Shown in pieces: positions 1,468-49,800 of a DNA stretch of 55,380 nucleotides; the first letter of the stretch is position 1; each line of letters opens with the position of its first letter. The translations under genes and the position numbers were made by a program. The notes beneath the pieces are model-generated. The model was not told the origin of the DNA. It saw only the letters and a list, made by a program, of their open reading frames with translations, and searched no databases. The DNA comes from Eledone cirrhosa (lineage: Eukaryota), in contig CAXHJY010000792.1 of assembly GCA_964016885.1 (NCBI GenBank), positions 1-55,380 of the forward strand. Reading direction: 5' to 3'.

Positions 1468-3235
1468 TTAGATTAATCGCCCCCTCTAAATCAGATCTGG
1501 GGATTGTTATTAAAGCCATCTTAGATAGAATTATCCCACAGTTTCGTTCTAATTGCTCTTCTTTGAACTTAAGTTTATGGTTTGGTACTTTTGAAGTGAT
1601 TGGCTGGTTCAACAAATTGAATAATAAAAACAAACTAAAATTTGTTCAATTTGATATTGCCAGCTACTATTCTTCTATTTCGCCTTCACTTCTCAACAAT
1701 GCTCTATCTTTCGCATTTAAATATTCTGACATCACCACAGATGAACTTCACATCATTCTCACCGCACGTAAAACCATCCTAGAGTTCAACAATGAATATT
1801 GGACCAGAGCTGATACCTCTAACAACTTCGACATCACAGTGGGAGCATCCGATTCATCCCAATTGACAGATTTAATTGGTATCTTTATTTTGAACTCTTT
1901 GAGTCGGAAAATTCCTCAACTTCGCGGTGGAATTTATCGTGACGATGGACTCTTTACTATCTTAAATTGCAACATAGTTAACCTTAATATTATTAAGAAC
2001 AATATACGTAATCTCTTTAACCAACATAACCTAAAAATTGAATTTGATAACAGCATCAAACTAGCTAATTTCTTGGATGTATCTCTTAATCTTGACACTG
2101 GCCTATATTACTCTTACCATAAAAACAATGAGAACCTAAATTATGTTAATTTTAAATCTAACCACCCCACTAATATTAAGAATGCTATAGTTAGTAATAT
2201 TGGAAAAAGAATATCTAACCTATCTTCTAATAAAAACATCTTTGATGCTAACGCCAATTACTATAATAACGCGCTTTCTAAAGCCGGCTATCCTGATAAA
2301 ATCAAATATAGTAAAGAAACAAATTCTAGAAGATCTTACAGTCGAATAATTAATCATGATCATTCCAATAACTTTAATAAAAGACCTAGATACAAAAAAC
2401 ATAATCTGGTATAATGCTCCTTTCTCCATCTCTATTAATAATAATATTCCTAAATTATTCTTTACTGCCTTAAATAAATGCTTCCCTCCCTCACATATCT
2501 ATAGTAAAATATTTAACAAACACACTATAAAATTTTCCTATTCGACATCCTCCAATATTTCCAACATTATCTCTAAACACAACAATAAAATACTAAATAC
2601 TAAATCTCTTCCTTCCAACACTGAATATCATAATAATAGTAATAGTACTCCCGACGTCATTGTAAACTCTAGGCTAATTTCTGCAAACCCAAATACAACG
2701 TCAAACACAACTTCGCTAAATGTTCTTAATCCCATTCTAAATCAAGAAACAATTATTCCTATCGTAAATAACCTATACAATCCAATTCCTTCTATAGATA
2801 ACACTAGGTCACTCGTTAATAATCTCTCTAATCGCAATTATAATTGCCGTGTTAAAAATAAATGTCCTCTCAACAACCATTGTCTTGATAAAAACTTAAT
2901 CTACGAATGTAAAGTTATAACTGACACCAATTCCTTCACCTATTTTGGCTCCACTTCCACCTCTTTTTAAGCTCGTCTTTGAAATACCAACTTAAAAGAA
3001 CCAACACGGCTCTCTCAGAACTCATATGGTCCTTGAAAGACAAAAATATTAAATATAACATCTCTTGGAAAAAGGTTTCTTCTTGAACAGTTCTCTATCT
3101 AAGACTTGCAATCTCTGTCTAAATGAAAAATTTACCATTATATCTAATTTAGATTCTATAATAAATAGATGCACTGACTTGTTTTCTCTCTGCTTACATA
3201 AATTCCACAGAACATTCCATAAAGTATACAGCTAA
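1468..3235 (+). pseudogene. PLE reverse transcriptase / GIY-YIG endonuclease, frameshifted
   Basis: ORF 1260-2414 contains QFDIASYY, FDITVGA, GIYRDDG, NFLDVSL and SNHP. ORF 2356-2970 contains WYNAPF, NCRVKNKCPLNNHCL and LIY..YFG. Frameshift near 2400 and stop at 2968. Confidence 0.85.
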
Positions 3236-4767: not shown

Positions 4768-4806
4768 ATTAAACATTGATATAAGAAAACAATTTCTTAC
4801 CGCTGT

Positions 4807-5243
<437 letters not shown>

Positions 5244-5244
5244 T

Positions 5245-5990
5245 TTCGTTTCTGAATTTGTTTAGCAAGATTCTGCATACGGTGGATGAAGTGTTGTATG
5301 TGTCTCTCTAGTTCTTCGGGGTTGCACATGCGGGACACGTTTCTCATCACCCGTACCAAATCCGCAATCAGTATGTTGATTTTGGTATGGTCCGAAACAG
5401 CTGTGTTTCGGTGGATCAGATATTTGGAAGTCATGGGTTTGGCATAATGGGAATGGAGGATTTGTTTTTTGTTATTAATGGTATCTAACCAGAGCTCTGT
5501 CTCTAGTACAGGTAATCGGTGGTTGGGGTGTTTGCTTGGGTAGTCTATAGTAACTCTAATACTCTGGTGGATGGAGTTAGCTATTTGCTGGATGCTTTCC
5601 ATTGTGTTTTTCTCTAATTCCTGACTGTTCTCTGGTGGGGGTGTTTTAACTACGATGTTTATATCATCAACGTAGCGGAATACATTATCAGGGTTAAGGG
5701 GTCTTCTAATTGTTCTTTAAGTTTAAGTTTAAGTCTACTGTCCTACCATACCATGAATAAGTTAGCTATGTCGCCTGCAATGCTAACACCAATGGCTGCT
5801 CCCTCCTCTTGGGCATATGTTTTTCCATTAAATTTGAACATATGTTCCTTAAGGGTTAATTTTATGCTGGCCCCCACCGCATGTGCAACCATTTTCTTTA
5901 GTTCATCTTGGTTTTCGGGGGTCCGTATGGCTCTGGTCCACCCGTTCCATCTATCTGTGTGGGTTTTCTCAAACTTACCTATAGTAATAA
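5245..5990 (-). pseudogene. PLE reverse transcriptase fragment (inverted 5' part)
   Basis: Minus-strand translation gives [46 protein letters not shown] and [11 protein letters not shown]. Confidence 0.8.
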
Positions 5991-7210
<1,220 letters not shown>

Positions 7211-7211
7211 C

Positions 7212-7545
7212 GGTGGCTGCCAACTCGTTTTCGAGTACGGCCACTACTTTATATCCATGTAGGAGAACCCCTACCGATGCGCTGAACGAGTGTGACTTTT
7301 TGGTCCAGCCAGCAACTTGAAAATCTGGTACAAACACGACACTTGTGACAATTATTGGCACATAGTGCTGGGCCCATGGTATCATGTGACGACAAGTGCA
7401 GAGAGATCTCCAGATATAAAGCAATGCCTGTGCTGTGAAGCTTTTATAGTGAGCAAAGGCACTGCACCAAGCCAGTCCCACTCTCTTAACCAAGATGATA
7501 TTTAGCAAAAAGAAGAACAAGTCAACATCATTGGATCCATCAGGG
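7212..7545 (-). mobile_element. 5'-truncated RTE-derived non-autonomous element
   Basis: Reverse complement of the 3' half of 30774-31383. Confidence 0.75.
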
Positions 7546-7749: not shown

Positions 7750-7990
7750 GACATTATTATTATTAATATTATTATTATTATTATTCTCTACATTCCTTAC
7801 ATCAAACTAAAACATGTTGACAATCTTTTAATAATGTCTTCCTTGTGAAATTTGTGGTCTTGTTTTGCTTAACTAATGAATATATATATGAATATAGACA
7901 TAGAATATTCGAAAATATTCTGTATGTTTATAATAAACATTTTGAAGACCTAATCGCTATAGAATAGAATACGTCACGTATTACAATTAG

Positions 7991-8079
7991 ATTCTCGATA
8001 AAAGCAAGGGAAGTAATCTACGCGTTTCATTCTTGTTAGAAATCTTCAGGACTACATATCCAGTGCTTTTATCGAGAAT
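7991..8079 (-). ncRNA. Type I hammerhead, first of 8 minus-strand copies (period 310, last core at 10213)
   Basis: Reverse complement of 10534-10622. Confidence 0.85.
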
Positions 8080-10533
8080 GACACAGCTAGAGACTTATAG
8101 AATACTTAGATGTGTACAGGAACTGGTTTGAAAGAGCGGTTGCCGGTCCGGCAGAAATTAGAAATTGGAATAAATGCTCTGAAATAGCGATATATATGTG
8201 AATATAGACATAGAATATTCGAAAATATTCTGTATGTTTATAATAAACATTTTGAAGACCTAATCGCTATAGAATAGAATACGTCACGTATTACAATTAG
8301 ATTCTCGATAAAAGCAAGGGAAGTAATCTACGCGTTTCATTCTTGTTAGAAATCTTCAGGACTACATATCCAGTGCTTTTATCGAGAATGACACAGCTAG
8401 AGACTTATAGAATACTTAGATGTGTACAGGAACTGGTTTGAAAGAGCGGTTGCCGGTCCGGCAGAAATTAGAAATTGGAATAAATGCTCTGAAATAGCGA
8501 TATATATGTGAATATAGACATAGAATATTCGAAAATATTCTGTATGTTTATAATAAACATTTTGAAGACCTAATCGCTATAGAATAGAATACGTCACGTA
8601 TTACAATTAGATTCTCGATAAAAGCAAGGGAAGTAATCTACGCGTTTCATTCTTGTTAGAAATCTTCAGGACTACATATCCAGTGCTTTTATCGAGAATG
8701 ACACAGCTAGAGACTTATAGAATACTTAGATGTGTACAGGAACTGGTTTGAAAGAGCGGTTGCCGGTCCGGCAGAAATTAGAAATTGGAATAAATGCTCT
8801 GAAATAGCGATATATATGTGAATATAGACATAGAATATTCGAAAATATTCTGTATGTTTATAATAAACATTTTGAAGACCTAATCGCTATAGAATAGAAT
8901 ACGTCACGTATTACAATTAGATTCTCGATAAAAGCAAGGGAAGTAATCTACGCGTTTCATTCTTGTTAGAAATCTTCAGGACTACATATCCAGTGCTTTT
9001 ATCGAGAATGACACAGCTAGAGACTTATAGAATACTTAGATGTGTACAGGAACTGGTTTGAAAGAGCGGTTGCCGGTCCGGCAGAAATTAGAAATTGGAA
9101 TAAATGCTCTGAAATAGCGATATATATGTGAATATAGACATAGAATATTCGAAAATATTCTGTATGTTTATAATAAACATTTTGAAGACCTAATCGCTAT
9201 AGAATAGAATACGTCACGTATTACAATTAGATTCTCGATAAAAGCAAGGGAAGTAATCTACGCGTTTCATTCTTGTTAGAAATCTTCAGGACTACATATC
9301 CAGTGCTTTTATCGAGAATGACACAGCTAGAGACTTATAGAATACTTAGATGTGTACAGGAACTGGTTTGAAAGAGCGGTTGCCGGTCCGGCAGAAATTA
9401 GAAATTGGAATAAATGCTCTGAAATAGCGATATATATGTGAATATAGACATAGAATATTCGAAAATATTCTGTATGTTTATAATAAACATTTTGAAGACC
9501 TAATCGCTATAGAATAGAATACGTCACGTATTACAATTAGATTCTCGATAAAAGCAAGGGAAGTAATCTACGCGTTTCATTCTTGTTAGAAATCTTCAGG
9601 ACTACATATCCAGTGCTTTTATCGAGAATGACACAGCTAGAGACTTATAGAATACTTAGATGTGTACAGGAACTGGTTTGAAAGAGCGGTTGCCGGTCCG
9701 GCAGAAATTAGAAATTGGAATAAATGCTCTGAAATAGCGATATATATGTGAATATAGACATAGAATATTCGAAAATATTCTGTATGTTTATAATAAACAT
9801 TTTGAAGACCTAATCGCTATAGAATAGAATACGTCACGTATTACAATTAGATTCTCGATAAAAGCAAGGGAAGTAATCTACGCGTTTCATTCTTGTTAGA
9901 AATCTTCAGGACTACATATCCAGTGCTTTTATCGAGAATGACACAGCTAGAGACTTATAGAATACTTAGATGTGTACAGGAACTGGTTTGAAAGAGCGGT
10001 TGCCGGTCCGGCAGAAATTAGAAATTGGAATAAATGCTCTGAAATAGCGATATATATGTGAATATAGACATAGAATATTCGAAAATATTCTGTATGTTTA
10101 TAATAAACATTTTGAAGACCTAATCGCTATAGAATAGAATACGTCACGTATTACAATTAGATTCTCGATAAAAGCAAGGGAAGTAATCTACGCGTTTCAT
10201 TCTTGTTAGAAATCTTCAGGACTACATATCCAGTGCTTTTATCGAGAATGACACAGCTAGAGACTTATAGAATACTTAGATGTGTACAGGAACTGGTTTG
10301 AAAGAGCGGTTGCCGGTCCGGCAGAAATTAGAAATTGGAATAAATGCTCTGAAATAGCGATATATATGTGAATATAGACATAGAATATTTTCGAATATTC
10401 TATGTCTATATTCACATATATATCGCTATTTCAGAGCATTTATTCCAATTTCTAATTTCTGCCGGACCGGCAACCGCTCTTTCAAACCAGTTCCTGTACA
10501 CATCTAAGTATTCTATAAGTCTCTAGCTGTGTC

Positions 10534-10622
10534 ATTCTCGATAAAAGCACTGGATATGTAGTCCTGAAGATTTCTAACAAGAATGAAACGCGTAGATTAC
10601 TTCCCTTGCTTTTATCGAGAAT
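10534..10622 (+). ncRNA. Type I hammerhead, first of 11 plus-strand copies (cores 10564 to 13664)
   Basis: 16-bp outer helix attctcgataaaagca/tgcttttatcgagaat; stem I gtagtc/gattac; CTGAAGA 10564-10570; stem II ttct-aaca-agaa; GAAAC-GC-GTA, with predicted cleavage after 10594. Confidence 0.88.
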
Positions 10623-13600
10623 CTAATTGTAATACGTGACGTATTCTATTCTATAGCGATTAGGTCTTCAAAATGTTTATTATAAACATACAGAATATTT
10701 TCGAATATTCTATGTCTATATTCACATATATATCGCTATTTCAGAGCATTTATTCCAATTTCTAATTTCTGCCGGACCGGCAACCGCTCTTTCAAACCAG
10801 TTCCTGTACACATCTAAGTATTCTATAAGTCTCTAGCTGTGTCATTCTCGATAAAAGCACTGGATATGTAGTCCTGAAGATTTCTAACAAGAATGAAACG
10901 CGTAGATTACTTCCCTTGCTTTTATCGAGAATCTAATTGTAATACGTGACGTATTCTATTCTATAGCGATTAGGTCTTCAAAATGTTTATTATAAACATA
11001 CAGAATATTTTCGAATATTCTATGTCTATATTCACATATATATCGCTATTTCAGAGCATTTATTCCAATTTCTAATTTCTGCCGGACCGGCAACCGCTCT
11101 TTCAAACCAGTTCCTGTACACATCTAAGTATTCTATAAGTCTCTAGCTGTGTCATTCTCGATAAAAGCACTGGATATGTAGTCCTGAAGATTTCTAACAA
11201 GAATGAAACGCGTAGATTACTTCCCTTGCTTTTATCGAGAATCTAATTGTAATACGTGACGTATTCTATTCTATAGCGATTAGGTCTTCAAAATGTTTAT
11301 TATAAACATACAGAATATTTTCGAATATTCTATGTCTATATTCACATATATATCGCTATTTCAGAGCATTTATTCCAATTTCTAATTTCTGCCGGACCGG
11401 CAACCGCTCTTTCAAACCAGTTCCTGTACACATCTAAGTATTCTATAAGTCTCTAGCTGTGTCATTCTCGATAAAAGCACTGGATATGTAGTCCTGAAGA
11501 TTTCTAACAAGAATGAAACGCGTAGATTACTTCCCTTGCTTTTATCGAGAATCTAATTGTAATACGTGACGTATTCTATTCTATAGCGATTAGGTCTTCA
11601 AAATGTTTATTATAAACATACAGAATATTTTCGAATATTCTATGTCTATATTCACATATATATCGCTATTTCAGAGCATTTATTCCAATTTCTAATTTCT
11701 GCCGGACCGGCAACCGCTCTTTCAAACCAGTTCCTGTACACATCTAAGTATTCTATAAGTCTCTAGCTGTGTCATTCTCGATAAAAGCACTGGATATGTA
11801 GTCCTGAAGATTTCTAACAAGAATGAAACGCGTAGATTACTTCCCTTGCTTTTATCGAGAATCTAATTGTAATACGTGACGTATTCTATTCTATAGCGAT
11901 TAGGTCTTCAAAATGTTTATTATAAACATACAGAATATTTTCGAATATTCTATGTCTATATTCACATATATATCGCTATTTCAGAGCATTTATTCCAATT
12001 TCTAATTTCTGCCGGACCGGCAACCGCTCTTTCAAACCAGTTCCTGTACACATCTAAGTATTCTATAAGTCTCTAGCTGTGTCATTCTCGATAAAAGCAC
12101 TGGATATGTAGTCCTGAAGATTTCTAACAAGAATGAAACGCGTAGATTACTTCCCTTGCTTTTATCGAGAATCTAATTGTAATACGTGACGTATTCTATT
12201 CTATAGCGATTAGGTCTTCAAAATGTTTATTATAAACATACAGAATATTTTCGAATATTCTATGTCTATATTCACATATATATCGCTATTTCAGAGCATT
12301 TATTCCAATTTCTAATTTCTGCCGGACCGGCAACCGCTCTTTCAAACCAGTTCCTGTACACATCTAAGTATTCTATAAGTCTCTAGCTGTGTCATTCTCG
12401 ATAAAAGCACTGGATATGTAGTCCTGAAGATTTCTAACAAGAATGAAACGCGTAGATTACTTCCCTTGCTTTTATCGAGAATCTAATTGTAATACGTGAC
12501 GTATTCTATTCTATAGCGATTAGGTCTTCAAAATGTTTATTATAAACATACAGAATATTTTCGAATATTCTATGTCTATATTCACATATATATCGCTATT
12601 TCAGAGCATTTATTCCAATTTCTAATTTCTGCCGGACCGGCAACCGCTCTTTCAAACCAGTTCCTGTACACATCTAAGTATTCTATAAGTCTCTAGCTGT
12701 GTCATTCTCGATAAAAGCACTGGATATGTAGTCCTGAAGATTTCTAACAAGAATGAAACGCGTAGATTACTTCCCTTGCTTTTATCGAGAATCTAATTGT
12801 AATACGTGACGTATTCTATTCTATAGCGATTAGGTCTTCAAAATGTTTATTATAAACATACAGAATATTTTCGAATATTCTATGTCTATATTCACATATA
12901 TATCGCTATTTCAGAGCATTTATTCCAATTTCTAATTTCTGCCGGACCGGCAACCGCTCTTTCAAACCAGTTCCTGTACACATCTAAGTATTCTATAAGT
13001 CTCTAGCTGTGTCATTCTCGATAAAAGCACTGGATATGTAGTCCTGAAGATTTCTAACAAGAATGAAACGCGTAGATTACTTCCCTTGCTTTTATCGAGA
13101 ATCTAATTGTAATACGTGACGTATTCTATTCTATAGCGATTAGGTCTTCAAAATGTTTATTATAAACATACAGAATATTTTCGAATATTCTATGTCTATA
13201 TTCACATATATATCGCTATTTCAGAGCATTTATTCCAATTTCTAATTTCTGCCGGACCGGCAACCGCTCTTTCAAACCAGTTCCTGTACACATCTAAGTA
13301 TTCTATAAGTCTCTAGCTGTGTCATTCTCGATAAAAGCACTGGATATGTAGTCCTGAAGATTTCTAACAAGAATGAAACGCGTAGATTACTTCCCTTGCT
13401 TTTATCGAGAATCTAATTGTAATACGTGACGTATTCTATTCTATAGCGATTAGGTCTTCAAAATGTTTATTATAAACATACAGAATATTTTCGAATATTC
13501 TATGTCTATATTCACATATATATCGCTATTTCAGAGCATTTATTCCAATTTCTAATTTCTGCCGGACCGGCAACCGCTCTTTCAAACCAGTTCCTGTACA

Positions 13601-13864
13601 CATCTAAGTATTCTATAAGTCTCTAGCTGTGTCATTCTCGATAAAAGCACTGGATATGTAGTCCTGAAGATTTCTAACAAGAATGAAACGCGTAGATTAC
13701 TTCCCTTGCTTTTATCGAGAATCTAATTGTAATACGTGACGTATTCTATTCTATAGCGATTAGGTCTTCAAAATGTTTATTATAAACATACAGAATATTT
13801 TCGAATATTCTATGTCTATATTCACATATATATCGCTATTTCAGAGCATTTATTCCAATTTCGA

Positions 13865-14331
<467 letters not shown>

Positions 14332-14485
14332 ATGTGTCAATAATTGTCACAAGTGTAGTGTTTGTACCAGAGTTTTCAAGTCGCTGGCTGGACTAAAAAG
14401 TCACACTCGTTCAGCGCATCGGTAGGGGTTCTCCTACATGGATATAAAGTAGTGGCCGTACTCGAAAACGAGTTGGCAGCCACCA
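14332..14485 (+). mobile_element. 3' fragment of the RTE-derived element
   Basis: Encodes [23 protein letters not shown] (C2H2), followed by the terminal hairpin. Confidence 0.75.
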
Positions 14486-14487
14486 TA

Positions 14488-14552
<65 letters not shown>

Positions 14553-14660: not shown

Positions 14661-14795
14661 GGTGTCTCGATCTCTTGTCCGGAAAGTCCTCAAGATCCAG
14701 CCAGCGAGTTGTCTGCACATTGTCGCCACTTTCATGATGTGTGAAGAAAAAGATGCATCATCGCTCATGTCTATGCCCAAGTCTCGTATCGAATG
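14661..14795 (-). mobile_element. CR1-type LINE RT fragment
   Basis: [33 protein letters not shown], homologous to the 53031 ORF. Confidence 0.75.
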
Positions 14796-14816
14796 GGAGT
14801 AGCAAACATAGTAACC

Positions 14817-16735
14817 TATGGGGGAACACTAAGGGAGTTATAGATTGGTTCTCCGGGATTAATAGACTTGAATCTAATAAGTTTATCCAATTCGATATTG
14901 ATGCCTACTACACATCAATTTCACCCATCCTCCTCAATAAAGCTTTAATGTTGGCCATGAGAGTGTCCAGCCTTACACGATCACAGGTAGATATTATACT
15001 AGCAGCCCGTAGAACTATTATTAATTTTGAGGACACATTTTGGACCCGTAAAAACACGCCCAATAATTTCGACGTTACAATGGGTTCGAGTGATTCGGCC
15101 CAGGTTACTGATCTTGTTGGGTTGTTCCTCCTTAATGAACTATATGCTACCTTCCCGCACCTTATAGGCGGACTATATCGTGATGATGCATTCTTTGTAA
15201 TAAACTCTAGCACCAACAATGTAGAACATAATAAGAAGAAGCTTTATAAGTTTTTTAAAAGCTATAACCTTTCGATCACGATAGATAGAAATGATAGAGC
15301 GGTTAACTTTTTAGATTTGACTTTGGACTTGGTCACTAATAGTTTTAAACCCTTCCATAAGCCTAATGAAATACTTTCTTATGTTAGTCCCAATTCTAAC
15401 CACCCCAAGTCTATGATAAGCTCTATAATTAAGGGTGTATCTAATAGGATTTCCACACTCTCTAAGGACGTAGGAACATTTAATGAACATGCGGAGTACT
15501 ATAATAATGCCCTAGCAAATTCAGGTTACTCTAGTAAAATACACTATAATAATAGTAACCTTAGAAAGTCTCCGTTTACTTTTAATAATAATAACATAAT
15601 ATCACATAACATGGCCATGAATGGGAGTAGCAAACATAGTAACCGTAAAAATTATATAGGTCTATCTGAACCCATCCATAAGTTAACCCACCGGACGCGT
15701 AATAGTTAATATAATACCTCTAGGAAACAAGTTGAACCCCCTGAGCGCTCACACATTGGTGATAATTTTGCTGAATCTTATTCTAATAATGTTGCTCCTA
15801 CTGATCCTATCATTGGCCCTAATCCTTATGATGGGATTCCGGACAGCAGCAGATCTACTGGAGGTAGAAACTGTAATAGACTTAATGAAATTTTGGCTGA
15901 TTCTATGAATGCGGCTTTAACTAATCCTTGTAGTAACCCTAGTCTCGATGGTGGGATATTTGATAATGGTAGAGTCGGTAAGAATAAAAATAGAAGGCGA
16001 TTAAATACTTATTTCAACCCGCCATATAATCAGGAAGTATCAACTAATATCCCTAGGTCTTTCTTCTCTATCTTAGAGAAAAATTTCCCCCCTTCTCATA
16101 AATACCATAGTATTTTTAATAAAAATGTTATTAAACTTTCATTCTCTACCACCCCTAATATTAGTTCTCATTTAGCTAGCACGAACAATAGGAAAATTAG
16201 GGATGGATTCTCCTCTCTACATACTACTCGTCTGAACAGATCTGGCAATGCATTACCACCAGAACAGTCCTTATCTAATAGCAATCCTACGTGTAATGCA
16301 TCACCACTTGAGCCAACCAATAACACCCGGAAGTGCAATTGTAGAGTGAGTGCTAACTGCCCTTTAAACGGTAACTGCCTTTCTAAGAACATTGACTATG
16401 CTTGCGAAGTTATAACTAATTCCTCTAATAGAACTTATATAGGCTCTACATCTAACACTTTTAAGACTAGGTTCAACTCTCATATCTCTAATTTCAAACA
16501 TGTTAAGTTTAAGAATTCTACTTCTTTAGCACATTATATCTGGGATCTTAAGGGAGCTAATATACCATATAGCCTTAACTGGCGTTTAGTAGCACGCTCT
16601 AACCACCTTTCTACGCATGCTAAGTTTTGTAATCTCTGTATCCTCGAGACACACTCTATAATTTTCTCTAGCGCATCCTTACTTAATAGAAAGTCTGAGA
16701 TATTCTCTTCTTGCCCCCACGCTATTTCTAATTAA
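14817..16735 (+). pseudogene. PLE RT / GIY-YIG ORF with one in-frame TAA (15707-15709)
   Basis: ORFs 14741-15709 and 15893-16735 share a frame and the gap is open. Motifs: FDIDAYY, GLYRDD, NFLDLTL, YFNPPY, CNCRVSANCPLNGNCL, YIGST, CNLC..E, LNRKSE..CPH. Confidence 0.9.
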
Positions 16736-21354: not shown

Positions 21355-23995
21355 TATCATCGGTAATATCAGCAAAAAGATTATTGATCGTATCATTCCG
21401 CAAATTAAAAAATGTGTAACACTTCCACTATGGGATAACACTTCCCAAATTATTGAATGATTCACTAGCATTGGGAATACAAACTCAGCTTCATTCATTC
21501 AATTCTTACTATTCTTCGATTTCTCCAATTCTTTTAAACAAAGCCCTGATCTTCGCAAGAAATAGATCGGATTTCAACGTCATAACTCACGCTAGAAAAA
21601 CCTTACTAAACTTCCAAGAAGAATACTGGACAAGAATCACATATAACAACTTATTCGATATTACGATGGGATCCATGGACTCTGCTCAAGTTACAGACCT
21701 CGTTAGACTATTTCTCCTCTATAATATTCATGACTCTTTTCCCCACCTCAAAGGTCGTTTTTATCGGGATGATTGTCTATTGTTATCTAACAATCTTAGC
21801 AATTCCAATATAGAGAAAAACAAAAAACAAATTAGAAAATTCCTCAAGGACTATTACAGCCTTAGCATCACTTTTGAAAACACTTCAAAAGAAGCTAATT
21901 TCCTTGATGTTACCGTAGACCTCTCTACAAATACTTATCAACCTTACCACAAACCCAACCAGTATCTACATTATGTACATTCACGATCTAACCACCGTGG
22001 CTCTATACTCAAGAACTTAGTATATAACATATCTCTTAGACTTTCTAAATTATCTTCCAATGAAGATATTATTTTATAATAATTGTTTCTACGTTAGGCA
22101 CAAGGCCAGCAAATACTCAGTGTATTACTGGTACTTTATTTTATCGACCTCGTAAGGATGAAAGGCAAAGTTAACCTCGGCGGGATTTGAACTCAGAATA
22201 GCAAGGGTCGTAACTCTATGCGTCAAAGCATGGCGTCCGACTCTCTACCAATACTGCCAATCCACCGCAATTCTACAACGAGACCTTAACTAGAAGTGGG
22301 TATAAAGAAAAAAATCTCATATATCCCCAACACTACTATGAACCAAAATATAAAACCTAGCAGAAACTACAAACACCAAAAAATACCATTGAAACAAATA
22401 CTTAAAGTAGTTATTCCTATTACACCAAACAACCGAAAAACCACAACAACTATTACTACACGATCTATGACCAATGTTATCAACCCACATATGAATACCA
22501 AGCACACAAAATCTCATAATCTACCCAATAATAACACCAAATACAACCACGGTAATTTACAAAATTCCACAAATAAGGATACTAACCATAGGAATTATTC
22601 TATAACACAACACAATAATATAAGTGGTAATAAGAACTTAACTAAAAACCGCAAAAGAAACATAACATAGTACAACTCACCCTTCAACTGCAAACTATTG
22701 GACAAATCCCCAAAACATTCTTTGAAATTCTACATAAACTTTTTCCACCAAACCACAGATACCACCAAATATTTAACAGATATACTGTTAAATTCTCATA
22801 CTCTACATCAAGCAATCTCCAGCAAAGAATAAATAACTACAACATTTATAAACTTAAAAATAATATGACTACACCACCACAACATAATTTAAATAGGACT
22901 GCACCTTTTAAAAAAGCAAATAATACCATCCTTCAACCTAGAAAACACAACCACCCAAATCACCAACACAAAAACAACAGAACACAAAATCACAATACAG
23001 CCCTAGCACCAAACCACCCACAAAGCAACCTTCATTCTCCTGCTATCATTAATTACAATAGGAATAGCTCAAGGATTAATGAGAATAGTATAGGCACACC
23101 CAACAACCATCTTACGTATGGCTGTAATTGCAGAAATAGAAGCATTTGCCCCTTAAATGGAAACTGTTTGATTAATAATGTAATATATAAATGTACTGTG
23201 TCTACTACAGACTCCAACAAAACATATATAGGATCTACATCAAACACATTTAAAAGATTTTATGCACACTCTAGTAGTTTCAACAATACTAAACTTGCTA
23301 ACACCACATCTTTAGCTGAAGCGGCAAATAATTATAAAAAGAAAAAAATAAAGATTTCAAGTTATCGTGGAACACCATTCTACAAAGAACTCCATATCTT
23401 GGGAACAGGAGGGAATGCAGATTATGTTCAGGAGAGATCTTGGAAATTACTAAATCTAAGGACGATTTATGAAATAAAAGGCAGGAACTGATCATAGTTT
23501 GTAATAACCGTACACGGAGAACATTTAAATACTATAAACCTAATTAAATATTCTAAATAGCAACTCACTATAAGTCTATAACATTTATTAGTACCCCTTT
23601 CCCCTAATTATATGCATTCATGCTGATTTTTTTACCTTTTAATGTTTTAGCTTCCTTAGGTTTATGCGTTAATGACTAAAGGCAACAAGGTACACAACCA
23701 ACCGTAATTGCATGAGTAAACATATATCTATGTATGATATGGAAATATGTTTATGTGTGTGTATATGTATATTTATGTATATGTATATATGTATATATGT
23801 ATATATATATGTATATGTATATGTATGTGTGTGTGTGTATGTGTGTATATATATATGTCTGTTTGTATGTGTGTATATGTGAGTATATTTGTATGATTGT
23901 TTATATATGAGTGTGTGTACATGTATGAGGAGTGTACATACACACACATATATATATATGTATGTATATATATGTGTATATATATATATATATAT

Positions 23996-30773: not shown

Positions 30774-31383
30774 TGTCAGGTCACCAGTTGGTGCTACTGG
30801 TAACATGTATCCCAGTACAACCTGTCTCATGGTCGGGTCGTTGGCGACTAAACTGGCAACCCCACCAAGGTCTCTTGGTGAGGAGGGTGACTTTGGACAT
30901 CCTGCAGGACTAAAAACAAAACCTGTCAAAGGGCAAGGGAGCTCTTAAGAGTCAATAGCCATCCAAAATCACCGGGAGAGATGACCCCTTAGCCTTTGTC
31001 AAGGCAGAATTCTAGGAGAAGGAAAACTCTGATATAACACCTGCAACCCTGACGGTATCCAATGATGTTGACTTGTTCTTCTTTTTGGTAAATATCATCT
31101 TGGTTAAGAGAGTGGGACTGGCTTTGTGCAGTGCCTTTGCTCACTATAAAAGCTTCACAGCACAGGCATTGCTTTATATCTGGAGATCTCTCTGCACTTG
31201 TCATCACATGGTACCATGGCCCCTGCACTATGTGTCAATAATGGTCACAAGTGTAGTCTTTGTACCAGAGTTTTCAAGTCGCTGGCTGGACTAAAAAGTC
31301 ACATTCGTTCAGCGCATCGGTAGGGGTTCTCCTACATGGATATAAAGTAGTGGCCGTACTCGAAAACGAGTTGGCAGCCACCA
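30774..31383 (+). mobile_element. Full-length ~610-bp bipartite RTE-derived non-autonomous retroelement
   Basis: RTE-like GC-rich 5' leader, no RT, 3' C2H2 finger remnant and terminal stem-loop. Same boundaries as 32409-33006. Confidence 0.7.
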
Positions 31384-31418
31384 TATAAATGTATATATAT
31401 ATATATATATATATATAA

Positions 31419-31632
<214 letters not shown>

Positions 31633-31657
31633 GTATATATATATATTTATATATGTA

Positions 31658-31706
<49 letters not shown>

Positions 31707-31728
31707 GTATATATATATATATATATAT

Positions 31729-31816
31729 ATAGGAACGAGTAGGACGCTGGGGTCCTACTCGTTCCTATTACCCACTCTACTACCCTAAGTATTGAGTACT
31801 TTGGTGCGTTATGGTC

Positions 31817-31818
<2 letters not shown>
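31729..31818 (+). mobile_element. Mini hairpin-plus-tail element, relative of 25434-27048
   Basis: 17-bp hairpin ataggaacgagtaggac/gtcctactcgttcctat plus the shared tail. Confidence 0.7.
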
Positions 31819-31906
<88 letters not shown>

Positions 31907-31927
31907 CATACATATATATGTATATAT

Positions 31928-31972
<45 letters not shown>

Positions 31973-31997
31973 CATACATATATATGTATATATATAT

Positions 31998-32084
<87 letters not shown>

Positions 32085-32107
32085 CATACATATATATATA
32101 TATATAT

Positions 32108-32162
<55 letters not shown>

Positions 32163-32181
32163 CATACATATATATATATAT

Positions 32182-32232
<51 letters not shown>

Positions 32233-32257
32233 CATATATATATATATATATACATAC

Positions 32258-32348
<91 letters not shown>

Positions 32349-32408
32349 CATATATATATATACATACATACATATATAAATATATATATACATATATATA
32401 TATATACA

Positions 32409-33006
32409 TGGTGGCTGCCAACTCGTTTTCGAGTACGGCCACTACTTTATATCCATATAGGAGAACCCCTACCGATGCGCTGAACGAGTGTGACCTTTTA
32501 GTCCAGCCAGCGACTTGAAAACACTACACTTGTGAGAAATATTGACACATAGTGCTGGGCCCATGGTACCCTGTGACGACAAGTGCAGAGAGATCTCCAG
32601 ATATAAAGCAATGCCTGTGCCGTGAAGCTTTTATAGTGAGCAAAGGCACTGCACAAAGCCAGTCCCACTCTCTTAACCAAGATGATATTTACCAAAAAGA
32701 AGAACAAGTCAACATCATTGGATACCATCAGAGTTGCAGGTGTTATATCAGAGTTTTCCTTCTCCTAGAATTCTGCCTTGACAAAGGCTAAAAGGTCATC
32801 TCTCCCGGTGATTTTGGATGGCCATTGACTCTTAAGAGCTCCTTTGCCCTTTGACAGGTCTTGTTTTTAGTCCTGCAGGATGTCCAAAGTCACCCTCCTC
32901 ACCAAGAAACCTTGGTGGGGTTGCCAGTTTAGTCGCCAACGACCCGACCATGGGTCAGGTTGTACTGGGATACATGTTACCAGTAGCACCAACTGGTGAC
33001 CTGACA
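32409..33006 (-). mobile_element. Second full-length RTE-derived non-autonomous element
   Basis: Reverse complement of 30774-31383 with scattered substitutions and a small deletion. Confidence 0.7.
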
Positions 33007-33432: not shown

Positions 33433-33588
33433 GTTAATTTGTATTCCAATGTTACTAAGTAGTTGCATTGGATGGAGTCAACTGACGTCAGAGATTGCTC
33501 AGCGTATAATAAAGCGTGTTTTAAAATCCGGAGAAAATATGGAGGAAAATTTTTTACGAAATGGAAATGCGGGTATATAGAATTTATT

Positions 33589-33705
33589 AGGTAACAATTG
33601 TTTCTATAGTGTATGAGTTACCTATACTTCGCTACTTGAATAATACACAAATATTATCAAAAACCGAAAGTACACTGTAAGCCAACACACCATGTCATCA
33701 GACCT
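33589..33705 (-). ncRNA. Type I hammerhead with ~90-nt stem II
   Basis: Mirror of 35827-35943. Confidence 0.75.
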
Positions 33706-34006
33706 TTGTATTAGAATGATATGAAAATATTTCATACACTAGATAAAAGATAAAGTAGGAGGTAGGAAGAGAAGGGGAAGAGGGAAGTGAGTGAGGTGGA
33801 GGGAGTCTTAGGGTTTAAGACTGTCAGACTAGTAGAGATTGTGAAGAGAGAATGTTTTGGCAGCAGTTAGCTTAATGAGGCGTGCTAAGGTTGGCTGGGA
33901 AGTAGATTCTTCTAGTGGTGTTGTTCGGACAAAATTTAGTTAGAGGGGTCAAAGTAGTACAGTGTCACAGACAAGCTATTAGGGCTATTATAGTAGCAGG
34001 TTATTT

Positions 34007-35239
34007 CTAAAGGGGTCCAGAAAAACAGTGTTTAGTACTATTATTATAGAAAGCCATATCTAGTGTATAAACATATAAGACAGAAATTCGCAAACGTTGG
34101 TGTAAAAAGGTAACATTATATGCATTTAAAAAAGAAAAAGTCGTTTTCAAACGATAGTTACAATATAGAGAACGTTCAATTTTGCTGTTCAAAAGTTTGT
34201 TTACCGACGTTAAAATGCAGTATATCTCTAAATTGCATAACTTGCAGAATCGATGATTTTGCTGATATGCAGGCGCAGCTGCAATAATTTGCCAATCAAG
34301 GGAGAACGCTTGATTGTTACTCCGAAGCTGCCAGGCTTTATCGGCGAGGGTTGTTACGGAGCGCATTTTCTCGTGCCTGATCGAAGATCGATGTTGGTAT
34401 AGGCGAGCCTTGAAAGAAGTTGCGGTACATCCGACGTAATACCATTTGTTGGTCCCGGAATTTATTGTACACCGGTAGACAATATTGCGTGCTAGGCACT
34501 GGTTATTCAGTGGGCACGTACCTGGTTTGGTGCAGTTACAACTATTTTTATGTTTTGCAGTAGAATCCTGGATAGTTTGGTGGGGTTGTGGTTGCGTGTT
34601 AGTGCGTTGTATGTTGCTATGCTGGTGCGCTGAGTCATTAGGGATGTACTTATTCAGTATTGCTGAGTTGAGTTTTCTAATTAGTTGTTCTATGTTAGGT
34701 GCAGTGGAGTATGAGAGTCTAATGGTGCGCGAGTTAAAGATTTTATAGTATTTATGTGAAGTTGTAAAGTGTTTATTGATTAGTGTATAGAATTGTGAGA
34801 TAATCTTAGTGCTAATAGAAGAATTGTACACGGGGTTATACCATATGTACTCTCTACGTCTGACTCTATTTGCTGGTTTGCACCTGTTAGTATGCCTATT
34901 GATGTGTGTGTGTGGTGCAATACTAGTTCGACTTAGATGTGTTTTATTCATAGTACTTATGTGGTTATCGTCTAGATATTCAATTTTCTCGCAGTAACTA
35001 GCTTTTCTAAGTGCGTCATTATAATATTCAGCATGCTCGTTGAAGGTCTGCAAATTAGACGACAGTCGGGAGATCCTTATGGATATATTTTTAGGGATAG
35101 ATTTTAATAATGGAATGAGGATGGTTCGATTTTACATTAACGTACTTAAGATTTTCATTAAGTTTGTGAAATGGCTCTATATTACCGTTATTAAGGTTGA
35201 AGGTGACATCCAAGAAGTTGACCACCTTAAGATTGTGTT
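34007..35239 (-). pseudogene. PLE RT-thumb / GIY-YIG ORF, 5'-truncated
   Basis: VNFLDVT, WYNPVY, LSYST, CNCTKPGTCPLNNQCL, IVY..YVG, RLYQH, CKLC..E, LN.K.E. Confidence 0.88.
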
Positions 35240-35826
35240 CAAATTATTGCAGCTGCGCCTGCATATCAGCAAAATCATCGATTCTGCAAGTTATGCAATT
35301 TAGAGATATACTGCATTTTAACGTCGGTAAACAAACTTTTGAACAGCAAAATTGAACGTTCTCTATATTGTAACCATCGTTTGAAAACGACTTTTTCTTT
35401 TTTTAAATGCATATAATGTTACCTTTTTACACCAACGTTTGCGAATTTCTGTCTTATATGTTTATACACTAGATATGGCTTTCTATAATAATAGTACTAA
35501 ACACTGTTTTTCTGGACCCCTTTAGAAATAACCTGCTACTATAATAGCCCTAATAGCTTGTCTGTGACACTGTACTACTTTGACCCCTCTAACTAAATTT
35601 TGTCCGAACAACACCACTAGAAGAATCTACTTCCCAGCCAACCTTAGCACGCCTCATTAAGCTAACTGCTGCCAAAACATTCTCTCTTCACAATCTCTAC
35701 TAGTCTGACAGTCTTAAACCCTAAGACTCCCTCCACCTCACTCACTTCCCTCTTCCCCTTCTCTTCCTACCTCCTACTTTATCTTTTATCTAGTGTATGA
35801 AATATTTTCATATCATTCTAATACAA

Positions 35827-35943
35827 AGGTCTGATGACATGGTGTGTTGGCTTACAGTGTACTTTCGGTTTTTGATAATATTTGTGTATTATTCAAGTAG
35901 CGAAGTATAGGTAACTCATACACTATAGAAACAATTGTTACCT
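35827..35943 (+). ncRNA. Type I hammerhead with ~90-nt stem II
   Basis: Stem I aggt/acct; CTGATGA 35831; atggtgtgt/atacactat; GAAAC-AATT-GTT 35928-35939. Confidence 0.75.
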
Positions 35944-35988
35944 AATAAATTCTATATACCCTCATTTCCATTTCGTAAAAATTTTTTT

Positions 35989-36014
<26 letters not shown>

Positions 36015-43635: not shown

Positions 43636-43691
43636 ATGCAAAAGGCCTGTCAATGCATTTTTCAAACACAATATATATATATATATATATA

Positions 43692-44115
43692 TGAATGTAT
43701 GTGTAGTATATTTGGCAATATACCGTATGTTTAATTAAAAACATTTAGAAGACCATACGTTATCAGTTTTAAAGTAGTGTCTATGTCACTTACTTCTTTT
43801 CGGTGAATGAAGGGAGAGAAGCTGACAGTCTGTTTCACACCTGTTTGGCGTTCATCAGAGTGACGCACTCCCCTGATTCCGCCGAAAATTATAGAAGCTG
43901 GATTCTTATAAAATTCCAGTAATAATCAGGGGCTGATTATACAGAGCGATTACCGGTCCAGCAAAAATTAGGTATTAGGATTGGTGTTCTGAAATAGCGA
44001 TGTATACATGGATGTATGTATAGTATATTTGGCAATATACCTTATGTTTAATTAAAAACATTTAGAAACCATACGCTATCAGTTTTAAAGTAGTGACTAT
44101 GTCACTTACTTCTTT
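43692..44115 (-). repeat. 317-bp HHR-bearing unit (1.3 copies), sister family of the 310-bp array
   Basis: tagtatatttggc occurs at 43704 and 44021. Homologous segments gagcg.tt.ccggtcc.gca.aaattag..tctgaaatagcgat and atgttta..aaacattt.gaagacc. Confidence 0.8.
43797..43888 (-). ncRNA. Type I hammerhead ribozyme
   Basis: CTGATGA (43852-43858); acgcc/ggtgt; GAAAC-AGACT-GTC; long outer helix, weak proximal stem I. Confidence 0.7.
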
Positions 44116-44881
44116 ATGTATATATATATTTAAGTTCTATGTTTATCTCGTAGATTAGTAATTTGACAAATAGGGATCGATTAAGTATGGACCAGGCATA
44201 AAAATAAGAACTCGGATCGATATGATCAATTAGATGTGCCCCAGCATAGCCTTACTCTAACAACTGAAACCACTATAAGTAGGAATGAATGTATATCAGG
44301 AACAACAAAAGTATAGCAGCTATTAATTTGCGCTGAAAGGAGGAATCAAAAATGATTTCAATGCTTCGGACATTTGTCTTTCGTCAAATAATACGTTTAC
44401 AATAAACACTTCATATTGAAAGAAGTAGCTTAACCGGATGGAGTTTCTCCATAAAAGGTCAACGGGTATAATAAATCTTCGGTGCATGCATTTGTGGTTT
44501 ATAGCCTGTGTATGTGTTATATTTCATCAAGGGACGTAAGGTACGAGAACATATGTTGAATGTCTATATAGGAGTGTACAAGTAAATGTGTGTGTTATCA
44601 AATCAAGGGAGATAAAATGCAAAATAAATTCTATGTGTATTTGTAGTTGAATATGTCTGTGCAAATTCCCACGAGAAGATTCACTACCAATATCTCGTAT
44701 CCATAATCCACCTATTAAACACGTACCAAGATGCCTCATTCATATCAACTACCCAACAGTTATATATGTATATATGCGTGTGTGTATATATATATATATG
44801 TGTGTGTGTGTAGAGAGAGAGATATGTATATATGTATATACGTGCGCATGCGCGTGTATATGTATATACACATGTATATAT

Positions 44882-46842: not shown

Positions 46843-49800
46843 GGCCCTTTCTGCCTGTGTGTTTGTTTGTTTATGTGTGTTCGTATACAGCGTGGTGATA
46901 ATGCCACACAAGGGCCAAGTGGGATGGCGGATCCACAGATGGCTATGTAAACATACATTCGCCAATCCTCGATAAGAGTGTTTAAATATCGAACATAAAC
47001 AGTTCGAATAACGGTGAAATGGAGACTAGAACGTCATGTGACAGACTCTCACCCAACAGGTGCCCCCTGGCTCAGCAGCAGGAACCTGACTGTCAACCAA
47101 ATACTGCTGATGTTGGAGGAAGGAGAAGAAGGAAAGGGGCCAGAACCAACTGGACGAAAGAATTGAATAGAACTGTTATGCAATGCTACCTGAAAAGTAA
47201 CCCCAAGGAGAGGGGCTACAGGAGACGGATGCATAACATCTGGAACGAGATTGGTTTATTTAAATTAGATGAACAAAAATTGGCCGGGCAGGCTCGGGTA
47301 ATAAGAACTAATGGGTGGATAAGCGAGCTGGAACTGGAGGAACTGAGCAGAGAGAATGGCTTGGAGATGGCGGGTGTAGTATGCCAGACAAGCGAGCCGG
47401 TGGGAAATGAAGGTGAGGAGGTCCTGAGAACGGAGGAACCACCCGAAGCAGACAATGATCTGAGTACTGAGATAAATAATACCTGGAACAGAGATACGGC
47501 CACTGAGGAGATGAATGCTGACGGGCTAGGACAAGATTCGGTTGACATCCTAAATTTAGTGGTAGATGAATTGAACAATGATAGTGGGAGACCTATGAAC
47601 CTAAGATTTGTAGACAGGAAAAAGTTAAAATAAACAACAGCTAAGGTAAACAAAGTCATCCCATACCTTGAGGCGAGGAGCCTTCACCAGTGCAACAATA
47701 TCCTCAGAGCAACAGCAAATACGGTGAGGAAACTACTTGGTATAAAAGCGAGAGGAAACAACAGACAAGAAAGAGCAGAGCCGTGGTGGAAGAAGCAACT
47801 GAGTGGGCAAATCGGGGAAATGAGAAATGACATAGGAAAGCTTGAGTCACTACTGAATGGGACACTAAAAAACATAGGCACTAAAAATAGACTGGAAATA
47901 AAATACAAAACTAGGAGTAAAAAGCTAAATATTATCATAGAGGAATTGAAGCAACGCATTGTAGCAAAGAGTGCAAAAATCAGGCGATACGAGAACAGAG
48001 TCAGTCAGTATAAACAGAACCGCATGTTCGACAACAACCAGAAGATGCTGTTTCGACAGCTTGAGGGCAAAGAAAGAGGCAACGACTTGATCCCTGGGGC
48101 GGAACAAACTAAAACATTCTGGAGAGGAATATGGGAGCAGGATGTTAGACACAATGCCCAGGCAGGGTGGATTGAGACAGTACAGAGGGAGATCGGTGAG
48201 CAGGCACAGCAACAGACTGATTTGAGTATCACAGTTGAAACTCTTAAGGGGCAAGCCAAAAAACTAACCAACTGGAAATCACCAGGCCCAGATGGTGTGC
48301 AGGGGTATTGGATTAAACATCTAACATCCCTCCACCCGAAGCTGACGGCCATGTTCAATGACTGCTTGGTGTCAGGTGAGGTGCCAGAGTGGTTGACAAA
48401 AGGTACCACAGTTCTGATAATGAAAGACCGAATCAAGGGTAATGATGCTACCAACTATAGACCTATCACATGTCTGCCCGTAATGTGGAAACTGTTGACG
48501 AGCATTGTGTCTGAGGAAATCTACCATCACCTCCACACAAACAACTTGTTACCGGACGAACAGAAAGGATGCCGAAAGAAGTCACGTGGTACAAAGGACC
48601 AGTTGCTTATTGATAAGATGGTAATGGGGAATTGCAGGAGGAGACACACTGATCTTGCCATGGGATGGATAGACTACAGAAAGGCATTTGACATGGTGCC
48701 TCATTCCTGGATCACCAAAAACCTGGAGATCTTCAGGGTGGCAGATAACATCAGACAGTTGCTAGGCAGGAGTATGGGGTCCTGGGAGACAGAGTTGACA
48801 TCAACTGGAGTATCCTTGGGAAGCGTGAAGATCAAGAGAGGTATCTTCCAGGGAGATAGCCTGTCCCCTCTGTTGTTTGTCCTTGCCCTGATGCCCTTGA
48901 CCATTATGCTGCGAAAAGTGAGAGCAGGATACAAGTTGGGAAGGGGAGAGCTTACCATCAATCACCTCCTCTTCATGGACGATCTTAAGCTCTTCGGGAA
49001 AAGTGAGAAGGAGTTGGATGTGCTTGTTGACACTGTCCGTATTTTCAGCAGTGATATATGTATGCAGTTTGGTATTGGTAAATGTGGAGTCATTGTGATG
49101 AAGAGGGGTAGGTTGAGCAGAAGTAACGGGATCCAGATACCAACAGGTGAGATGATAAAGGAAATTGACTCTGAGGAAGGATACAAGTATTTGGGCGTTC
49201 TGGAGGCTGATGGCATAAAGAACAAAAAAATGAAGGAATTGTTAAGAACTGAATACATTCGGAGAGTAAGGAGCGTATTGAAGTCACATCTGAACAGCAG
49301 AAATGCCATAAGCGCAGTAAATTCCCGAGCTGTGTCTATTATTAGGTACAGTGCGGGAATTCTGAGATGGAATGTTGCTGAACAAAAAGAAATGGATAGG
49401 AAGACTAGGAAGCTATTGACTATCTACAACATGTTCCACAAGAGGAGTGATGTCGATAGACTCTACCTAAGGAGATCTGAGGGTGGAAGAGGTCTTATCA
49501 GCATAGAGGACTGTGTTCAGATGGAGAAAAACAACCTATACAAATACGTGACCTATAGTAAGGAGCCAATGCTCAGAACTGTACTGAAGGAGGGGACAGT
49601 AGGCCAGGGGATGTCCAGGGGGGAAATAACATCAAGGAGGAAGAGCAGCCTTAAGGGAAAATCCCTTCATAGTACCTTCTTTGAGAAAACTGAATTTAGA
49701 GATCCACAGACATGGAACTGCTTGAGAAGAGGAGACCTCAAAAAGGCTACAGAAGGAATGCTAATGGCTGCGCAGGAGCAGGCCCTCAAAACGAAGTGGT

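What the first reader, a model, noticed from the sequence alone, without database searches (positions are those of the whole stretch)
10381..10402. The array flips exactly at a hairpin encoded in the unit
Seen: every unit contains agaatatt-cgaa-aatattct. At the centre the sequence is tagaatatt-TTCG-aatattcta, so the strand switch occurs within this inverted repeat with no filler, giving ~2.5-kb perfect arms around a 4-nt loop. The right end runs ~30 nt further into the unit than the left end. Inference: fold-back or annealing of two cDNAs at the hairpin, which may be a programmed second-strand priming or joining site. So long a perfect palindrome should be unstable, implying very recent origin.
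Basis: partly seen in the sequence, partly recalled or inferred. Interest (0 to 1): 0.7.

Follow-up and report, generated by a model that had tools for sequence, protein, structure and literature searches.

The report
Hairpin flip: hotspot, not programmed join
This array is one of well over a thousand back-to-back insertions of a small ribozyme-bearing repeat, likely pasted in by a Penelope-type transposon enzyme copying one RNA from both sides of a DNA cut; the two halves join at scattered places and only rarely at this hairpin, which is conserved in related repeats and may instead help the enzyme find its start sites.

Summary
Observation confirmed: 2,501-nt perfect arms meet inside the unit's 8-bp hairpin. 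The reading 'programmed joining site' is refuted. The 310-bp unit carries a minimal hammerhead ribozyme (a non-LTR retrozyme) with about 2,000 insertions. Most are head-to-head, but 0 of 87 unselected junctions lie at this hairpin. Genome-wide it holds 6 junctions (~0.3%), against 6 at a 7-bp hairpin, 17 at a 16-bp inverted repeat and 3 at another 8-bp one: each inverted repeat tested is a similar microhomology hotspot. What is fixed are the outer ends: one at unit 128-139, the other at 161-172 (29 of 31), the Penelope 'tail' footprint, here inside a 12-bp target duplication. Both arms share one haplotype (78 of 79). Best model: twin priming by a Penelope enzyme on one RNA, then microhomology joining. 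Two further points: the loop comes from the tail-side arm in 6 of 6 hairpin joins, suggesting snap-back, and the hairpin is conserved with compensatory changes in sister families at the same distance from both start sites. No read bridging this junction was seen. The scan found this family before on other DNA of this genome.

The parts
7878..7889 (+). Left copy of the target-site duplication (11-12 bp, AT-rich, one informative G)
7889..10389 (-). Short-end (S) arm: 8.07 identical 310-bp units, outer end at unit 130, inner end at unit 110
10382..10401 (.). Strand-switch junction inside the 8-bp/4-nt-loop hairpin (8-nt overlap; loop from the right arm)
10382..13862 (+). Tail (T) arm: 11.2 identical units, inner end at unit 98, outer end at unit 168
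10558..10600 (+). Minimal type I hammerhead motif (stem I 6 bp, CUGAAGA, stem II 4 bp, GAAA, short palindromic stem III; predicted cut after 10594); 11 copies on +, 8 on -
   Evidence: motif scan and fold; no hammerhead family among the Rfam matches
10534..10622 (+). 16-bp inverted repeat (unit 250-265 with 13-28) that encloses the ribozyme; the largest junction hotspot tested (17 places)
10673..10711 (+). One unit's double hairpin (unit 79-95 and 98-117), conserved with compensatory changes in sister families, 13-22 and 48 nt upstream of the two fixed ends
13825..13862 (+). 'Tail': unit 131-168 present at the right end only
13863..13874 (+). Right copy of the target-site duplication, running into the (AT)n tract 13865-14333

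Best explanation
The array is a young insertion of a 310-bp hammerhead retrozyme whose two oppositely oriented arms were likely made by a Penelope-type reverse transcriptase priming from both sides of a staggered cut on one RNA and were then likely joined through a short inverted-repeat microhomology, which at this locus is the unit's hairpin. Shown: head-to-head arms, a 12-bp duplication, one outer end near unit 165 and the other at 128-139, one haplotype per insertion, scattered junctions enriched for microhomology. Inferred: cutting and priming by a PLE protein in trans (partner not found); protein-directed start at 165 and AT-tract pairing at 130-139; repeated copying round a circular monomer; joining by host microhomology end joining. 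Both cDNAs have the same polarity, so they can only anneal through inverted repeats of the unit, and each such repeat tested is a 9- to 28-fold hotspot. At this hairpin the tail-side cDNA likely snaps back, is extended, and then anneals to the other cDNA. The hairpin's conserved role is more likely RNA recognition near the start sites than joining.
For: Inverted pair in 32 of 38 set-A loci and 54 of 60 set-B loci. Outer ends S+T in 29 of 31 closed set-A pairs; 29 mixed against 1 same-site pair, p=6e-8. Junction in the hairpin 0 of 87; overlap of 5 nt or more 8 against 0.6 expected among 68 joins without inserts; 19 of 87 have inserted bases. Exact-junction counts 6 / 6 / 17 places / 3; the converging-polarity junction at the same hairpin 0. 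Arms agree at 13 polymorphic columns in 78 of 79 loci while 80.5% of between-locus pairs differ; 10 locus-private variants sit in every copy of both arms. Loop from the T arm in 6 of 6 joins here and 4 of 6 at the 7-bp hairpin (10 of 12, p=0.04); short mirror or duplicated pieces at L071, L069, L173, L098; a mirror-placed single-unit variant in L070. Hairpin pairs hold in 98.8% of cells, 5 of 8 pairs with two-sided change, over 10 sequences of 5 groups. A coding GIY-YIG copy (L217) has the same inverted layout with a one-sided tail. Poseidon starts at two RNA sites that bound the tail and extends both strands (PMC11167929).
Against: No autonomous partner sharing the unit or the double hairpin was found among 50 GIY-YIG stretches. 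No raw read or contig was seen to bridge this junction, and ribozyme cleavage, RNA and circles are untested. In L124 both arms switch haplotype after two units, and L107 shares a single-unit variant in register from the outer ends: this fits a linear multimer or fold-back copying better than one monomer circle. Some arms repeat a variant at 2- to 7-unit spacing (L044, L045, L047, L072, L069), so part of the array length arises after insertion or from multimers. One locus has two T ends (L051) and one an odd end (L050); 5 of 38 set-A loci have one arm only. T-arm junction positions are slightly non-uniform (KS p=0.037). The covariation rests on few related groups, group E is a weak hit, and the structure was drawn from the window's copy. 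For this locus alone (S shorter than T, no variants) pure fold-back cannot be excluded.
Confidence: 0.75

Rival explanations
1. The hairpin is a programmed second-strand priming or joining site.
For: 6 separate loci with unrelated flanks flip exactly here, about 18 times the uniform expectation, all with the loop from the T arm; the hairpin is conserved.
Against: 0 of 87 unselected junctions (upper 95% bound 3.4%); about 0.3% genome-wide; other inverted repeats are enriched 9- to 28-fold; sister families also flip at scattered places.
Confidence: 0.03
2. Pure fold-back: one cDNA primed at the tail site snaps back, copies itself, and is joined to the other DNA end at the AT tract; there is no second priming on RNA.
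For: Shared haplotypes follow automatically; loop from the T arm 10 of 12; mirror variant in L070; 5 of 82 loci are nearly symmetric against about 2.2 expected, p=0.07; this locus fits.
Against: The copy cannot be longer than its template, yet S exceeds T in 37 of 87 loci and in 3 of the 6 hairpin loci (L069, L071, L072).
Confidence: 0.08
3. Same twin priming, but on a long linear multimeric transcript of a source array instead of a circular monomer.
For: L124 and L107 share unit-specific differences in register from the outer ends; Poseidon uses uncleaved RNA in vitro (PMC11167929).
Against: Locus-private variants fixed in up to 24 copies of both arms need a monomer bottleneck somewhere; 126 single-unit variants occur once only, and only 4 loci share such a variant between arms; arms reach 24 units or more.
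Confidence: 0.2
4. A one-directional array was inverted after insertion by recombination or replication template switching at the inverted repeat.
For: Local micro-inversions of hairpin loops and unit duplications exist (L047, L175).
Against: Both outer ends are 3' ends at two fixed sites inside a target duplication; the reciprocal junction is absent, 0 against 6; most insertions are two-armed.
Confidence: 0.03
5. Fold-back artefact of long reads or assembly on an unplaced 55-kb contig.
For: The window is a whole unplaced contig; no bridging read was seen; units are fully identical.
Against: Flanks are not mirrored, arms are unequal and a target duplication is present; the same junction lies at 5 other places, 4 on large scaffolds; contigs of run X1 show 11 strand-switch joints at scattered unit positions and loose ends into (TA)n near both fixed ends.
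Confidence: 0.03

Closest known systems
Metazoan non-LTR retrozymes (Cervera and de la Pena 2020, PMC7229834; Li, Clavereau and Pollet 2026, 10.64898/2026.07.22.740005)
   Same: Low-GC tandem units of about 300 bp, each with a type I hammerhead motif, dispersed, non-coding; PLEs proposed as the mobiliser and a circle as template.
   Different: Neither text describes two-armed insertions: 'inverted' occurs 0 times in the first and once, in a reference, in the second (supplements not seen). The 2026 preprint leans to local expansion by unequal crossover, whereas here most of an array seems to arrive in one event.
Penelope-like elements: inverted pLTR plus 30-40-bp tail (Craig et al. 2021, PMC8557442; Poseidon in vitro, Frangieh et al. 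2024, PMC11167929)
   Same: Inverted 5'-truncated copy next to the 5' end, tail at one end only, (TA)n targets, two internal start sites bounding the tail, both strands extended, start in a stem-loop; non-autonomous Chlamys copies with head-to-tail multimers are described.
   Different: No RT or endonuclease here; both arms are multimers of one unit; the strict one-S-one-T pairing and the junction spectrum are not reported in the passages read; one start (130-139) looks homology-assisted.
L1 twin priming (as described in PMC2837659)
   Same: [quoted passage not shown]
   Different: No poly(A); both starts are fixed internal sites 26-38 nt apart; the two junction ends are unrelated in position, where in L1 they flank an internal deletion.
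Snap-back / synthesis-dependent microhomology end joining (PMC5728401)
   Same: Inverted repeats near a free 3' end prime short self-copies that then anneal across the break; matches the short mirror pieces at L071, L173 and L098.
   Different: Described at nuclease breaks in Drosophila, not between two retroelement cDNAs; the enzyme here is unknown.

Membership tests
Non-LTR retrozyme | Tandem repeats of 150-450 bp, GC under 50% | tested here: met
   310-bp period, GC 0.33-0.35
Non-LTR retrozyme | Type I hammerhead motif in every unit | tested here: met
   Core, stems I-III found by motif scan and fold in 19 of 19 complete copies; Rfam returned no hammerhead family
Non-LTR retrozyme | Non-coding and dispersed | tested here: met
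   No frame of 170 aa or more listed for the array; 1,034 exact tail ends genome-wide
Non-LTR retrozyme | Self-cleavage and linear/circular RNA in vivo | not testable with these tools
   No RNA holder listed
Penelope-like element (autonomous) | ORF with RT and GIY-YIG endonuclease | tested here: not met
   Absent from the element; such ORFs lie elsewhere in the genome
PLE-mobilised non-autonomous element | Inverted copy joined at the 5' end | tested here: met
   32 of 38 and 54 of 60 loci
PLE-mobilised non-autonomous element | 30-40-bp tail at one end only | tested here: met
   29 of 31 closed pairs; 38 nt at this locus
PLE-mobilised non-autonomous element | AT-rich or microsatellite target | tested here: met
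   Ends run into (TA)n in nearly all loci printed
PLE-mobilised non-autonomous element | Sequence shared with the pLTR of a coding partner | tested here: inconclusive
   None found among 50 GIY-YIG stretches, out of 10,596 first-look candidates
L1 twin-priming insertion | Target duplication around two inverted pieces of one RNA | tested here: met
   12 bp here, 14-16 bp at L040; most other flanks are uninformative (TA)n
L1 twin-priming insertion | Poly(A) tail and junction ends that flank an internal deletion | tested here: not met
   No poly(A); position difference between the two ends is flat, 8 within 15 nt against 8.7 expected
Programmed hairpin join | Most insertions flip at the hairpin | tested here: not met
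   0 of 87; 6 genome-wide

The most novel reading that the evidence does not exclude
The conserved double hairpin is the handle by which a dimeric Penelope enzyme grips a circular ribozyme RNA and sets two start sites, one per DNA strand; both subunits copy round the circle, and the tail-side cDNA closes the insertion by snapping back on inverted repeats. The ~2,000 insertions would then be a natural readout of how Penelope inverted-pLTR-plus-tail structures and retrozyme arrays form in one step.
Probability: 0.3. Interest if true: 0.72.

Novelty: new variant of a known kind. Interest (0 to 1): 0.48.

Why it matters
How PLEs make their inverted, one-tailed insertions and how animal retrozymes are retroposed are both stated as open in the papers read (PMC8557442, PMC11167929, PMC7229834). 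This family gives countable rules: one start site per DNA end, one template haplotype per insertion, joins set by inverted microhomology with a bias to the tail-side strand, and a conserved stem-loop pair at a fixed distance from the starts. Each can be tested with an existing in vitro PLE system.

Tried and rejected
Rfam: only miRNA-like matches caused by the palindrome, all below the gathering scores; no hammerhead family. Sequencing runs: no RNA holder listed; no raw reads shown to be of this organism. X21 (raw Hi-C, organism J) laid 0 reads, which is no test. On the 114-nt junction stretch no listed piece of X1, X4, X5 or X8 bridged the centre; 411 pieces were not shown and contigs drop rare forms, so this is no evidence either way. 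Search for an empty site with the left flank returned only other repeat copies. Partner search by blastn/nhmmer over held loci, a covariance model over 54 stretches and a motif scan of 26 stretches found sister retrozyme families but no coding partner. Arms stopping at the ribozyme cut site: 4 of 87 S arms within 3 nt, about 2 expected (read), not pursued. The idea that coding PLE arms always end together was dropped: L217 and L211 are symmetric, but several other coding loci have unequal or no inverted arms. The 8-bp hairpin at unit 79-95 and two 8-nt palindromes were not counted genome-wide. Literature searches for a described two-armed retrozyme or PLE twin priming listed none by title or abstract start; most subscription papers and the supplements of the papers read were not seen and could hold such a description.

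Full report
Observation. The window is a whole unplaced contig (C819) of a 3.0-Gb genome. A 310-bp unit forms 8.07 copies on one strand and 11.2 on the other. The arms 7889-10389 and 10394-12894 are perfect complements over 2,501 nt around TTCG. The switch is an 8-nt overlap inside the unit's hairpin; the loop is the right arm's own. A 12-bp duplication (7878-7889, 13863-13874) flanks the array at the edge of an (AT)n tract.

What the unit is. On the right arm's + strand each unit holds a minimal type I hammerhead motif with a predicted cut after 10594 (found by motif and fold, not by Rfam). Unit positions below count from 10595. This fits the non-LTR retrozymes of PMC7229834 (passages read) and 10.64898/2026.07.22.740005 (part 1 of 5, passages and Discussion read). 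An exact end motif occurs 1,034 times and in 19 of 38 loci not chosen for it, so there are about 2,070 insertions (95% range 1,550-3,100).

Census of junctions. Set A is the 38 other loci that I could read from the listed hits (each has a full unit on the minus strand; 89 hits were not listed). Set B is 60 stretches covering 61 of the first 63 of the 1,034 end hits. Inverted pairs occur in 32 of 38 and 54 of 60 loci (55 elements); the rest are one-armed, broken by gaps or longer than the stretch. I left out the six loci chosen for the hairpin junction, a second element in L069 and a repeated junction in L076, leaving 87 junctions. None lies in the hairpin, positions cover the whole unit (KS p=0.037 for T arms, 0.065 for S arms), and the two ends of a junction are unrelated in position. 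Overlaps are enriched: 8 of 68 have 5 nt or more against 0.6 expected, 9 are blunt against 36 expected, and 19 of 87 have inserted bases.

The hairpin against other inverted repeats. Both cDNAs of a head-to-head insertion have the same polarity, so any overlap is an inverted repeat of the unit (inference). Exact-pattern counts over the genome: this hairpin 6, the 7-bp hairpin at 37-51 6, the 16-bp repeat 13-28/250-265 18 matches at 17 places, the 8-bp repeat 59-66/138-145 3. Against uniform joining these are 18-, 21-, 28- and 9-fold enriched, and this hairpin's share is what its weight predicts. Exact patterns miss variant copies, so all four are lower bounds. The opposite-polarity junction at the hairpin occurs 0 times. 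The flanks of the six hairpin loci do not match one another. The hairpin is therefore a real hotspot used by about 0.3% of insertions, not a programmed site.

What is fixed. The outer ends are: one at 128-139 (S), the other at 161-172, mostly 165 (T). Set A has 29 S+T pairs, 1 T+T, 1 odd and 1 open. PLEs are known to carry an inverted truncated copy and a 30-40-bp tail at one end and to favour (TA)n (PMC8557442, passages). Poseidon protein cuts and extends both strands and starts at two RNA sites that bound the tail (PMC11167929, parts 1-2 of 4 read; supplements not read). The genome has many GIY-YIG copies, and one coding copy, L217, is itself a 1,629-nt inverted pair with a one-sided tail. 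The S site coincides with the unit's AT tract, which could pair with an AT overhang; the T site has only about 2 nt in common with the target (read; roles inferred).

One template per insertion. At 13 polymorphic columns the arms agree in 78 of 79 loci with both arms of 150 nt or more (L047 and L076 left out), while 80.5% of between-locus pairs differ; 10 locus-private variants, one of them in this window, fill every copy of both arms; 19 private changes lie in one arm only, mostly in single copies. This supports twin priming on one RNA (PMC2837659, passages) over priming on two. A circle explains fixation and long arms. Against a pure monomer circle: L124 and L107 share unit-specific differences in register, and five loci repeat a variant within an arm.

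How the join forms at the hairpin. In 6 of 6 loci the loop comes from the T arm; at the 7-bp hairpin in 4 of 6. L071 and L173 carry a short mirror copy between hairpin and S arm, L069 a short duplicated piece, and L070 a single-unit variant placed symmetrically about the junction. This matches snap-back synthesis followed by annealing across the break (PMC5728401, passages; related self-annealing at L1 ends in 10.1101/2024.12.14.628481, passages). RT slippage on the S side could also give the short pieces. Pure fold-back cannot be general, because S is longer than T in 37 of 87 loci and 3 of 6 hairpin loci; for this locus it remains possible.

Why the hairpin is there. Sister families of about 65-80% identity, one in this window at 43683-44117, keep both this hairpin and its neighbour. 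Over 10 sequences of 5 groups 98.8% of cells pair, 5 of 8 pairs change on both sides, several through G-U, and slid controls pair 27-54% (few independent groups, group E a weak hit, structure taken from the window's copy). Family B ends about 22 and 49 nt after its hairpin, as the window's family does, and flips at scattered places. G-U pairs point to an RNA structure. A role in protein recognition next to the start sites is inferred and untested.

Reads. Contigs of run X1 (library not on record, organism coded) hold the unit at very high depth, 11 strand-switch joints at scattered unit positions and loose ends into (TA)n near both fixed ends, so inverted joins are not peculiar to this assembly. 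No listed piece bridges this particular junction.

Earlier notes. My reading was fixed, which showed eight notes on the same architecture at other places of this genome, six of them on a 310-bp unit; one prompted the target-duplication check. They are not independent evidence. A word search for the junction question returned nothing.

Verdict. Real feature; new variant of a known kind (retrozyme with a PLE footprint). Programmed hairpin join: not supported. The value lies in the family-wide rules and the conserved double hairpin. Interest 0.48.

Noticed in passing
window 43683-44117 (-); L141, L034, L176-L205; L064, L132, L112; L063:4520-4745: At least three older sister families (B, 317-bp period, 2,904 first-look candidates; C; D) with related units, the double hairpin and, for B and C, the same two ends.
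   Followed up: partly
runs X1-X20; X2, X8, X12: Runs labelled with 18 coded organisms hold over half of the sampled words; in three the unit is a single 340-nt contig (closing on itself in X2 and X12, about 99% alike) at depth 26-365, while raw Hi-C reads of organism J laid none. Cross-contamination, diet or a mobile RNA are all open.
   Followed up: partly
L217:3260-6675; L211:1049-6218: Coding GIY-YIG copies that are near-perfect palindromes (1,629-nt arms, 8-nt spacer; 1,732-nt arms, 26-nt spacer); L217 has a hammerhead motif after the ORF and a one-sided tail.
   Followed up: partly
L124 (G000:C1:136718506-136726505): Both arms carry two outer units of one haplotype and inner units of another; the one exception among 79 loci.
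   Followed up: partly
L047, L175: Single units in which a small hairpin's loop is inverted in place, repeated at 6-unit spacing in L047.
   Followed up: no
window 7210-7545 and 14331-14490; also near 31047-32731: Another dispersed repeat in AT tracts (3,114 first-look candidates for the flank query); two 96% alike copies face each other around the array.
   Followed up: no
window 33537-35994: 756-nt inverted pair (99%) around a broken ORF with a GIY-YIG-like motif at 34010-35131: probably another PLE insertion.
   Followed up: no
window 14738-16732, 22646-23488, 4772-5716, 46986-50408: Broken PLE-like ORFs (a weak GIY-YIG match at 15710-16732) and a long RT-like ORF of another retroelement.
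   Followed up: no
L216:8062-9056, L080, L121, L212, L213: Further hammerhead-bearing repeat families with periods of about 460-510 bp or single copies.
   Followed up: no
unit 284, 287, 294, 295, 276, 277, 2: Seven of the 13 polymorphic columns lie in the ribozyme (core N position, stem I, stem II and its loop), which suggests several active haplotypes.
   Followed up: no
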